This document shows, in pieces, positions 57,532 to 58,439 of a stretch of 64,000 bases of DNA. Source of the stretch: Escherichia coli (GTDB lineage: Bacteria > Pseudomonadota > Gammaproteobacteria > Enterobacterales > Enterobacteriaceae); the NCBI RefSeq assembly GCF_044324875.1, contig NZ_CP172185.1; one strand, given 5' to 3'. Made by a program: the position numbers and the translations under genes. Within the stretch, counting starts at the first letter, position 1. The number at the start of each line of letters is the position of its first letter. Below the pieces are notes generated by a model, which searched no databases, was not told the origin of the DNA, and was given only the letters and a program-made list of their open reading frames with translations.

Positions 57532-58439
<908 letters not shown>

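What the first reader, a model, noticed from the sequence alone, without database searches (positions are those of the whole stretch)
58433..58439. Programmed -1 frameshift heptamer A_AAA_AAG linking IS orfA and orfB
On the minus strand orfA reads ...CTG GAA AAA AAG CGC..., which contains the slippery heptamer A_AAA_AAG. The -1 frame is open from this point through the DDE domain to the stop at 57564. This predicts an OrfAB fusion transposase of roughly 420 aa, which suggests the element is intact and potentially active.
Basis: seen in the sequence. Interest (0 to 1): 0.3.

Follow-up and report, generated by a model that had tools for sequence, protein, structure and literature searches.

The report
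IS1397 transposase programmed -1 frameshift site
The flagged seven bases are the known ribosome-slipping site that lets the E. coli jumping gene IS1397 fuse its two overlapping reading frames into one transposase, so the finding is correct but ordinary.

Summary
A_AAA_AAG lies at 58439..58433 on the minus strand, in the orfA zero-frame register (GAA AAA AAG). It is the only canonical -1 heptamer in the 109-nt orfA/orfB overlap. The -1 frame stays open to the stop at 57566..57564.

The element is a complete 1432-bp IS1397 (IS3 family) at 57532..58963. It has 25-bp terminal inverted repeats and a 3-bp GAA duplication inside a REP palindrome between yphA and yphB. RefSeq annotates the same insertion in other strains as "IS1397 family transposase, programmed frameshift". 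The fusion protein is 449 aa, not about 420.

Comparison with about 50 relatives (38–58% identity) adds some nuance. The family, including IS150, places the heptamer in the motif ENAYL-K-K and follows it after 6 nt with a covarying 10-bp stem. IS1397 has lost that heptamer and that stem. Its heptamer sits 8 codons further downstream, and GGAG lies 11 nt upstream, as in most relatives. No convincing downstream stimulatory structure was found.

An A7 run preceded by a small hairpin leaves transcriptional slippage as a minor rival. The feature is already known, and interest is low.

The parts
57532..58963 (-). Complete IS1397 insertion sequence, 1432 bp
   Evidence: 99.5-99.7% DNA identity to RefSeq-annotated IS1397 copies at the same locus. 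Boundaries confirmed by in-silico excision, which matches empty sites at 100%.
58939..58963 (-). Left terminal inverted repeat TGAACTGCACCCCAAATGTTGGACA
   Evidence: Unique in the window. 21 of 25 positions match the right repeat.
57532..57556 (+). Right terminal inverted repeat TGAACTGAACCCCAAAACCTGGACA, read on the + strand
58964..58966 (.). Target-site duplication GAA, left copy, inside the REP/PU half GCCGGATGCGGCGT(GAA)
57529..57531 (.). Target-site duplication GAA, right copy, followed by the REP/PU half CGCCTTATCCGGC
58391..58912 (-). orfA (173 aa from ATG 58912, stop TGA 58393..58391): HTH DNA-binding domain and leucine-zipper-like tail
   Evidence: The RefSeq CDS start maps to 58912.
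57564..58499 (-). Open -1 frame (orfB): HTH_21, rve and rve_2 with DDE residues D295, D355, E391 in fusion numbering
58433..58439 (-). Slippery heptamer A_AAA_AAG. P-site AAA and A-site AAG re-pair with AAA AAA, and the next codon read is GCG.
   Evidence: Invariant in the five IS1397 variants compared.
58434..58440 (-). Run of seven A's that contains the heptamer; possible transcriptional-slippage substrate
   Evidence: IS1397 has A7, whereas 48 of 54 windows have A6.
58451..58455 (-). Shine-Dalgarno-like AGGAG. Its GGAG ends 11 nt before the heptamer.
   Evidence: GGAG at an 11-nt spacer in 35 of 50 unique windows, IS1397 included; the Glu codon that supplies the GAG of this GGAG is GAG in 37 of 49 relatives against 19.9 expected. 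The published stimulatory range is 6-17 nt (PMC4066793).
58442..58456 (-). Predicted small hairpin CAGGAG-CAU-CUCCUG ending 1 nt before the A7 run; it contains the SD-like motif
   Evidence: -8.0 kcal/mol, third strongest of 54 upstream segments.
58387..58432 (-). Predicted irregular downstream hairpin; weak candidate stimulator, with the second A-run in its loop
   Evidence: -14.6 kcal/mol, z = -1.87, falling to z = -0.79 when a 5-nt spacer is excluded. Natural variants are mixed: one strengthens a pair and two break pairs.
58412..58417 (-). Second A6 run (GAG AAA AAA CGA); non-canonical alternative slip site
   Evidence: Changed to AAAAAG in one natural variant still annotated with a programmed frameshift.
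58460..58466 (-). Position homologous to the family's ancestral heptamer (ENAYL-K-K). It now reads G AAA GCC and is not slippery.

Best explanation
**What it is.** This is the recoding site of IS1397, an IS3-family insertion sequence of E. coli that inserts into REP palindromes.

**How it most likely works.**
- Most ribosomes translating orfA terminate at TGA 58393..58391 and make OrfA, a small DNA-binding regulator.
- A minority slip back one base. This happens when tRNA-Lys occupies AAA in the P site and AAG in the A site of A_AAA_AAG (58439..58433).
- Those ribosomes read GCG next and continue in the orfB frame to 57564. The result is the 449-aa OrfAB transposase, whose junction is ...LLEKK-APGAGEK....
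- The likely stimulators are a Shine-Dalgarno-like AGGAG 11 nt upstream and, at best, a weak irregular hairpin downstream.

**Shown here:** the motif, its register, the open frame, the domain content, the element's identity and completeness, and conservation of the motif type across the family.

**Inferred:** that slippage is ribosomal, its efficiency, and the roles of the SD-like element and the hairpin.

**How IS1397 differs from its relatives.** The heptamer has moved 24 nt downstream of the family-conserved ENAYL-K-K position, and the family's conserved 10-bp stem-loop is absent.
For: - Motif, register and open -1 frame.
- Identity with RefSeq 'IS1397 family transposase, programmed frameshift' copies; their 1349-nt joined CDS gives 449 aa.
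- The fusion has the full IS3 transposase domain set, and no orfB-frame start precedes GTG 58286.
- orfB is in the -1 frame in 63 of 74 relatives. 49 unique frameshift windows from relatives, plus IS150, ISKpn8 and an E. coli plasmid relative, carry an in-register A_AAA_AAG/A.
- GGAG lies exactly 11 nt upstream in 35 of 50 windows, IS1397 included. The Glu codon that supplies its GAG is GAG in 37 of 49 relatives against 19.9 expected.
- A7G and AGGAG are invariant in the IS1397 variants compared (94.7-100% identity).
- Published measurements place A_AAA_AAG among the most efficient -1 motifs in E. coli and show that SD-like elements 6-17 nt upstream stimulate: PMC4066793.
- The element is intact, with full length, both repeats, a target duplication, and an empty-site match.
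- 1720 of 5426 complete E. coli genomes carry the frameshift region, with up to 40 places per genome.
Against: - No experimental data on IS1397 frameshifting could be read. The primary papers are not held.
- The downstream structure is weak (z = -1.87 or -0.79; 0.30 kcal/mol/nt by published criteria), and natural variants both make and break its pairs.
- No curated RNA family matches.
- In this Lys/Glu-rich stretch the motif arises by chance in 6.6% of codon shuffles.
- The site is not at the family-conserved position, so conservation supports the kind of motif rather than this exact site.
- The A7 run with an adjacent upstream hairpin also fits transcriptional slippage, which would give the identical protein.
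Confidence: 0.8

Rival explanations
1. Transcriptional slippage. RNA polymerase stutters on the T7 template run and adds an eighth A to a fraction of transcripts. Standard translation of those mRNAs then yields the same OrfAB (LLEKK-APGAGEK). The nascent hairpin CAGGAG-CAU-CUCCUG, which ends 1 nt before the run, would shorten the RNA:DNA hybrid to A:T pairs only and so promote realignment.
For: - IS1397 has A7, whereas 48 of 54 family windows have A6.
- Its upstream 24 nt fold at -8.0 kcal/mol, third strongest of 54.
- The 81 nt around the site fold with z = -2.99.
- IS1447, another IS3-family element, uses transcriptional slippage, needs at least 7 A's, and has an adjacent upstream stem-loop (PMC6211511).
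Against: - Seven A's is the reported minimum, and other work cited in the same paper sets the threshold at 9.
- The motif is in exact ribosomal register and ends in G, neither of which polymerase slippage requires.
- The SD-like GGAG at the family-typical 11-nt spacing is explained only by a ribosomal mechanism.
- Relatives with only A6 use the same motif.
- From my own knowledge rather than sources read here, ribosomal frameshifting on this motif has been shown experimentally for IS150 and IS911.
Confidence: 0.12
2. The functional shift occurs further downstream in the overlap. Candidates are the second A-run (GAG AAA AAA CGA, 58417..58412) and the A_AAG tetramer (CGA AAG, 58409..58406). These would give junctions ...KKRQELEKK-TKVI... 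or ...EKKRK-VIRSL....
For: - Both are in register and lie before the orfA stop, and any join in this interval gives an open 449-aa product.
- A_AAG is the best tetramer motif in E. coli (PMC4066793).
Against: - Neither is a canonical heptamer. After the shift the P-site tRNA would face GAA or ACG.
- Tetramers reach about 10-fold lower levels than the best heptamers and need a strong stimulator, and none is evident here.
- The second run is changed to AAAAAG in a natural copy still annotated as having a programmed frameshift.
Confidence: 0.05
3. There is no recoding. The heptamer is a chance product of a lysine-rich coding stretch, and OrfA and OrfB are made separately, or the copy is inert.
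For: - The bare string is at chance frequency in the window.
- It arises in 6.6% of codon shuffles of the overlap.
Against: - The orfB frame has no start codon before GTG 58286, about 150 nt downstream of the heptamer.
- The same motif type recurs in register in about 50 diverged relatives.
- The element has amplified to as many as 40 places per genome, which requires a working transposase.
- IS1397 transposition is reported as experimentally proven (PMC1525189).
Confidence: 0.03

Closest known systems
IS1397 (IS3 family, REP/PU-specific insertion sequence of E. coli)
   Same: - 99.5-99.7% DNA identity over the whole element, and the same yphA-yphB insertion locus as in strains IAI39 and Ecol_316.
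- The same 449-aa frameshifted transposase annotated by RefSeq.
- Insertion in the loop of a REP palindrome with a 3-bp duplication.
   Different: Essentially nothing: three substitutions inside the element relative to the IAI39 copy. RefSeq's protein has Pro at residue 161 where tandem slippage predicts Ala, which is an artefact of where the join is drawn.
IS150 frameshift cassette (A_AAA_AAG plus downstream stem-loop)
   Same: The same heptamer, the same orfA/orfB architecture, and 42% protein identity.
   Different: IS150's heptamer lies at the family-conserved YL-K-K position and is followed after 6 nt by a perfect 10-bp stem (GCCUUAGCUC/GAGCUAAGGC; -17 kcal/mol for the hairpin itself). 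IS1397's heptamer is 8 codons downstream, and the equivalent arm pairs at only 7 of 10 positions, which is chance level. IS150 has no GGAG 11 nt upstream.
E. coli dnaX and IS911 -1 frameshift signals (SD-like element, A_AAA_AAG, downstream structure)
   Same: The same heptamer with an upstream SD-like sequence inside the experimentally stimulatory 6-17 nt range (for the range; the dnaX and IS911 details are from my own knowledge).
   Different: dnaX and IS911 have well-defined downstream structures, a stem-loop and a three-way junction respectively. In IS1397 only a marginal irregular hairpin is predicted.
IS1447-type transcriptional slippage in IS3-family elements
   Same: A homopolymeric A run of at least 7 immediately preceded by a predicted stem-loop.
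   Different: IS1447 has A9, needs a +1 change of frame, and has no ribosomal slippery register. IS1397 needs a -1 change and has a canonical in-register heptamer.

Membership tests
IS3 family insertion sequence | DDE transposase with an rve (integrase core) domain | tested here: met
   Pfam rve 3.7e-21 and rve_2 1.4e-20. D295, D355 and E391 lie in the WVTD, HSD and VME motifs.
IS3 family insertion sequence | Two overlapping ORFs with orfB in the -1 frame relative to orfA | tested here: met
   a 109-nt overlap, 58499..58391.
IS3 family insertion sequence | Terminal inverted repeats beginning 5'-TG and ending CA-3', with a 3-4 bp target duplication | tested here: met
   TGAAC...GTTCA, 21 of 25 matching. 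GAA duplication confirmed by the empty-site match.
IS1397 (the specific element) | Near-identity to the reference element in sequence and length (1432 bp) | tested here: met
   99.5-99.7% identity to RefSeq copies named IS1397, and a length of 1432 bp. The ISfinder reference itself was not available, and the reference length is from my own knowledge.
IS1397 (the specific element) | Insertion into the central loop of a REP/palindromic unit | tested here: met
   The flanks reconstitute GCCGGATGCGGCGTGAACGCCTTATCCGGC. The specificity is documented in PMC1525189.
Programmed -1 ribosomal frameshift signal | X_XXY_YYZ heptamer in zero-frame register inside the overlap | tested here: met
   A_AAA_AAG is the only such motif in the overlap.
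Programmed -1 ribosomal frameshift signal | Upstream SD-like sequence 6-17 nt before the motif | tested here: met
   AGGAG with an 11-nt spacer. Its function was not tested.
Programmed -1 ribosomal frameshift signal | Downstream stimulatory hairpin or pseudoknot starting 4-10 nt after the motif | tested here: inconclusive
   The best candidate by the published rules is a 103-nt branched structure at 0.30 kcal/mol/nt. The local hairpin scores z = -1.87, or -0.79 with a spacer. Variants are mixed. Pseudoknots were not searched.
Programmed -1 ribosomal frameshift signal | Demonstrated trans-frame protein that depends on the motif | not testable with these tools
   This needs a reporter assay or proteomics, and the primary IS1397 papers are not held.
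IS150-type frameshift cassette (heptamer at YL-K-K plus conserved 10-bp stem) | Heptamer within the ENAYL-K-K / YL-K-K codons | tested here: not met
   IS1397 reads CTG AAA GCC there, and its heptamer is 8 codons downstream.
IS150-type frameshift cassette (heptamer at YL-K-K plus conserved 10-bp stem) | 10-nt arm at +7..+16 pairing with an arm about 28-61 nt downstream | tested here: not met
   IS1397 pairs at 7 of 10 positions, the mode for shuffles, while 47 of 53 relatives pair at 9-10 of 10. Covariation supports the stem in relatives.
Transcriptional-slippage recoding (IS1447-like) | Homopolymer run of at least 7 with an adjacent upstream hairpin | tested here: met
   A7 at 58440..58434, and a hairpin at 58456..58442 of -8.0 kcal/mol.
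Transcriptional-slippage recoding (IS1447-like) | Heterogeneous transcripts with an added A | not testable with these tools
   This requires cDNA sequencing.

The most novel reading that the evidence does not exclude
IS1397 carries a rebuilt frameshift cassette. The family's ancestral heptamer and its covarying 10-bp stem-loop were lost, and a new A_AAA_AAG arose 24 nt downstream. An SD-like GGAG was re-created at the same 11-nt spacing. The new site sits in an A7 run behind a hairpin, so OrfAB may come from ribosomal and transcriptional slippage together. Two Pseudomonas elements have an A-run at the same relocated codon position. That points to a recurrent or ancient alternative solution within the IS150 group.
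Probability: 0.35. Interest if true: 0.3.

Novelty: already known. Interest (0 to 1): 0.12.

Why it matters
The site sets how much active transposase IS1397 makes, and therefore how fast it spreads among REP sequences in E. coli. Its frameshift region is present in 1720 of 5426 complete genomes, with up to 40 places per genome.

For annotation, it confirms that this copy is intact rather than a pseudogene.

The comparative result is of modest interest to recoding specialists as a natural example of how frameshift signals turn over. The heptamer has moved, the family stem-loop is lost, and the SD-like spacing is kept. It does not change the general picture of IS3-family expression.

Tried and rejected
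- **Searching for intermediate relatives that share the relocated site.** The 5.8-billion-protein search returned only copies about 99% identical. In the 1.84-billion representative search the next full-length relative was 43% identical. Two apparent intermediates at 76% and 92% identity (P0143, P0172) turned out to be IS1397 copies from a metagenome assembly. One A is missing from each A-run and there are further frame breaks, so I read them as homopolymer miscalls.
- **Reading the primary IS1397 papers.** DOI and PMC id look-ups all failed because the papers are not held.
- **Rfam scan.** It returned only two chance-level hits.
- **Promoter and terminator scan.** Nothing exceeded the shuffles.
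- **Generic folding of 93-128 nt downstream.** No signal: z = -1.15 to +0.10.
- **Testing whether L065 and L070 are sister to IS1397.** OrfB identity of 51-52% is lower than for other relatives, and a neighbour-joining tree only places IS1397 within a 30-member, mainly proteobacterial clade. The shared position remains unexplained.
- **Using natural IS1397 variants as a covariation test of the downstream hairpin.** One change strengthens a pair and two break pairs, so the result is inconclusive.

Full report
**1. Observation**

On the minus strand the orfA frame reads ...CAT CTC CTG GAA AAA AAG CGC CAG GAG.... Its first A is the last base of a zero-frame codon, which is the X_XXY_YYZ register.

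orfA starts at ATG 58912 and stops at TGA 58393..58391. The RefSeq CDS start in an identical copy maps to the same ATG. The frame one base upstream is open from 58499 to the stop at 57566..57564. This gives a 109-nt overlap in which a -1 shift would join the two frames.

An exhaustive listing finds this to be the only canonical heptamer in register within the overlap. There are also in-register tetramers, among them A_AAA at 58415..58412 and A_AAG at 58409..58406.

The string itself is not statistically remarkable. AAAAAAG occurs 14 times in the window against 15.3 expected. Codon shuffles of the Lys/Glu-rich overlap create an in-register copy in 6.6% of trials, and mononucleotide shuffles in 1.2%. 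The case therefore rests on context and homology.

**2. What the element is**

The 1.5 kb around the site is 99.5-99.7% identical to sequences in over 1700 complete E. coli genomes. There it is annotated as "IS3-like element IS1397 family transposase".

In strains IAI39 and Ecol_316 the insertion lies at the same place, between yphA and yphB. Its CDS is a two-piece join of 1349 nt flagged "programmed frameshift", which gives 449 aa. Inside the element the window copy differs from the IAI39 copy at three positions, none near the frameshift region.

The element spans 57532..58963 (1432 bp). Its 25-bp terminal inverted repeats match at 21 of 25 positions (TGAAC...GTTCA), and it is flanked by a GAA duplication. 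Removing the element and one GAA reconstitutes the REP palindrome GCCGGATGCGGCGTGAACGCCTTATCCGGC. The resulting 176-nt sequence is found 100% intact between yphA and yphB in other E. coli. This fits the documented REP specificity of IS1397 (PMC1525189).

The conceptual fusion has the full IS3 transposase architecture: HTH_28/HTH_Tnp_1, HTH_21, rve and rve_2. Its catalytic residues are D295, D355 and E391. It differs from common database alleles at only a few residues. The copy is therefore intact. The fusion is 449 aa, not about 420.

**3. Where the shift is drawn**

RefSeq proteins read ...LLEKKPPGAGEK.... Trying every possible "read one base twice" join shows two things:
- That sequence arises only if C 58432, the base after the heptamer, is the one read twice.
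- Any join within the A-run or at the final G gives ...LLEKKAPGAGEK....

Tandem slippage on A_AAA_AAG makes GCG (Ala) the next codon. The Pro in the database protein is therefore an annotation convention, not a different mechanism.

**4. Comparative evidence**

A scan of one genome per species returned 80 loci encoding relatives at 38-58% identity, from Bacillota to Pseudomonadota.

- *Frame arrangement.* In 63 of the 74 loci where both halves were found, orfB is in the -1 frame.
- *Motif.* These yielded 49 unique frameshift windows besides IS1397's own, each with A_AAA_AAG (or A_AAA_AAA) in register. It always lies within the conserved OrfA peptide ENAYL-K-K.
- *Named relatives.* IS150, ISKpn8 and an E. 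coli plasmid relative have it at the same position (YL-K-K).
- *Downstream stem.* Six nt after the heptamer, a 10-nt arm (consensus GCCUUAGUUC) pairs at 9-10 of 10 positions with an arm usually 46 nt further on (GAACUAAGGC, which encodes E-L-R in the -1 frame). This holds in 47 of 53 relatives. Shuffled sequence mostly gives 7-8 of 10.
- *Covariation.* A formal count gives 97.8% paired cells, compensatory changes at 5 of 10 pairs, and 20-57% pairing when the partner is slid. The rows had been pre-selected for at least 9 of 10 pairs, which inflates the percentage paired.

In IS150 this stem is the perfect 10-bp GCCUUAGCUC/GAGCUAAGGC helix.

**5. How IS1397 departs from the family**

IS1397 retains the peptide RAENAYLKA, but the codons read CTG AAA GCC, so the ancestral heptamer is gone. 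Its A_AAA_AAG lies 8 codons (24 nt) further downstream at L-L-E-K-K. The arm at +7..+16 after the new heptamer pairs at only 7 of 10 positions with anything downstream, which is chance level.

What IS1397 does share with its relatives is GGAG exactly 11 nt upstream of the heptamer.
- This spacing occurs in 35 of 50 unique windows, IS1397 included, and GGAG occurs at no other spacing.
- In relatives the GAG of that GGAG is a Glu codon. That codon is GAG rather than GAA in 37 of 49 elements, against 19.9 expected from each element's own Glu codon usage. This comparison treats the elements as independent.
- In IS1397 the motif is AGGAG at 58455..58451.
- SD-like sequences 6-17 nt upstream of a -1 motif are experimentally stimulatory in E. 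coli, and A_AAA_AAG is among the most efficient motifs (PMC4066793).

Two Pseudomonas elements (L065, L070) have also lost the ancestral site. They carry an A-run (CAG AAA AAA CGA, and CAG AAA AGG CGA) at exactly the codon position of IS1397's heptamer. Their OrfB is only 51-52% identical to IS1397's, which is no closer than other relatives. Whether this reflects shared ancestry or convergence is open.

**6. Downstream structure in IS1397**

- The 48 nt after the heptamer fold into an irregular hairpin (58432..58387) at -14.6 kcal/mol, with z = -1.87. Leaving a 5-nt spacer unpaired gives z = -0.79.
- Longer windows are indistinguishable from shuffles.
- By the published criteria for IS3-family stimulators, the best candidate is a 103-nt branched structure at 0.30 kcal/mol/nt. 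The published mean for IS3-family hairpins is 0.45.
- Among five natural IS1397 variants (94.7-100% identity in this region), A7G and AGGAG never change.
- In the hairpin, one substitution converts U·G to U-A and two others break pairs, which is inconclusive.
- No Rfam family matches.

There is no convincing stimulatory hairpin, and pseudoknots could not be searched.

**7. Rival mechanisms**

*Transcriptional slippage.* The heptamer is part of an A7 run (58440..58434), whereas 48 of 54 family windows have A6. The run is preceded, after one nucleotide, by a predicted hairpin CAGGAG-CAU-CUCCUG at -8.0 kcal/mol. The 81 nt around the site fold with z = -2.99.

The IS3-family element IS1447 makes its transposase by transcriptional slippage. 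It needs at least 7 A's and has an adjacent upstream stem-loop (PMC6211511). Adding one A to the IS1397 transcript would give exactly the same protein.

I rate this a minor contributor, at about 0.12, for three reasons:
- Seven A's is the minimum reported.
- The ribosomal register, the final G and the SD-like spacing are all unnecessary for polymerase slippage.
- Relatives with only A6 use the same motif.

*Other rivals.* Slippage at the second A-run or at the A_AAG tetramer is possible but non-canonical. It also lacks the strong stimulator that tetramers require. "No recoding" is unlikely because the orfB frame has no start codon before GTG 58286. The element has also clearly amplified, to as many as 40 places per genome.

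**8. Verdict**

The observation and the interpretation are both correct. The feature is the already annotated programmed -1 frameshift site of IS1397, and this copy is intact.

The added value here is descriptive:
- the correct product length (449 aa);
- the Ala versus Pro junction residue;
- the finding that IS1397's site is not homologous in position to the IS150-type cassette and lacks its stem-loop, while keeping an SD-like element at the family's spacing.

Novelty: already known. Interest: low.

Noticed in passing
window 56634..57505 (+), near 57169: yphB (aldose 1-epimerase) is split into two ORFs of 198 aa and 97 aa. Alignment to two other strains shows that the window lacks one C near 57169. 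This is either a frameshift pseudogene or a sequencing error.
   Followed up: partly
window 58432 (residue 161 of OrfAB): RefSeq IS1397 transposase proteins have Pro at the junction (LLEKKPPGAGEK), because the annotated join reads the base after the heptamer twice. Tandem slippage on A_AAA_AAG predicts Ala (LLEKKAPGAGEK).
   Followed up: yes
window 58964..58966 / 57529..57531; L001 and L002 junctions: The same REP between yphA and yphB carries IS1397 in three strains, but with different junctions: GAA duplicated here, AAC (offset by 1 nt) in Ecol_316, and gaa|gaaa in IAI39. This suggests independent insertions into one hot-spot palindrome.
   Followed up: partly
L003, L004, L006, L017 (Pseudomonas asuensis); L047, L050 (P. 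oryzihabitans, P. rhizoryzae): In these relatives orfA and orfB form one continuous ORF (ENAYLKKARSLGS...), equivalent to the frameshifted product. They need no recoding and so would make transposase constitutively.
   Followed up: partly
L020, L033, L034, L060, L045 (Pseudomonas): This subgroup keeps the heptamer at ENAYL-K-K but lacks the family's conserved 10-bp stem (8 of 10 pairs, chance level). It has a different sequence (GAGTTAGGCG) at the arm position.
   Followed up: no
L065:~489-573, L070:~1929-2028: Two Pseudomonas elements lost the ancestral heptamer (CTA AAG GAG) and have an A-run at the same codon position as IS1397's relocated site. L070's terminal repeats (TGAACTGCCCCCAAGAAGTTGGACA) closely resemble those of IS1397.
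   Followed up: partly
P0143 / P0172; L090:2001-2570: Metagenome-derived 'proteins' 76-92% identical to IS1397 OrfAB are artefacts. One A is missing from each of the two A-runs, so the reading passes orfA, then the +1 frame, then the orfB frame. Further frame breaks occur downstream.
   Followed up: yes
window 57631..57637 (-): A second AAAAAAG lies near the 3' end of orfB (CAA AAA AGA), but it is out of the X_XXY_YYZ register and has no overlapping frame to shift into.
   Followed up: yes
window 58424..58447 (-): A perfect 7-bp inverted repeat CUCCUGG/CCAGGAG brackets the heptamer (-10.6 kcal/mol, z = -2.13). It competes with the upstream CAGGAG/CUCCUG hairpin for the same strand. Its significance is unknown.
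   Followed up: partly
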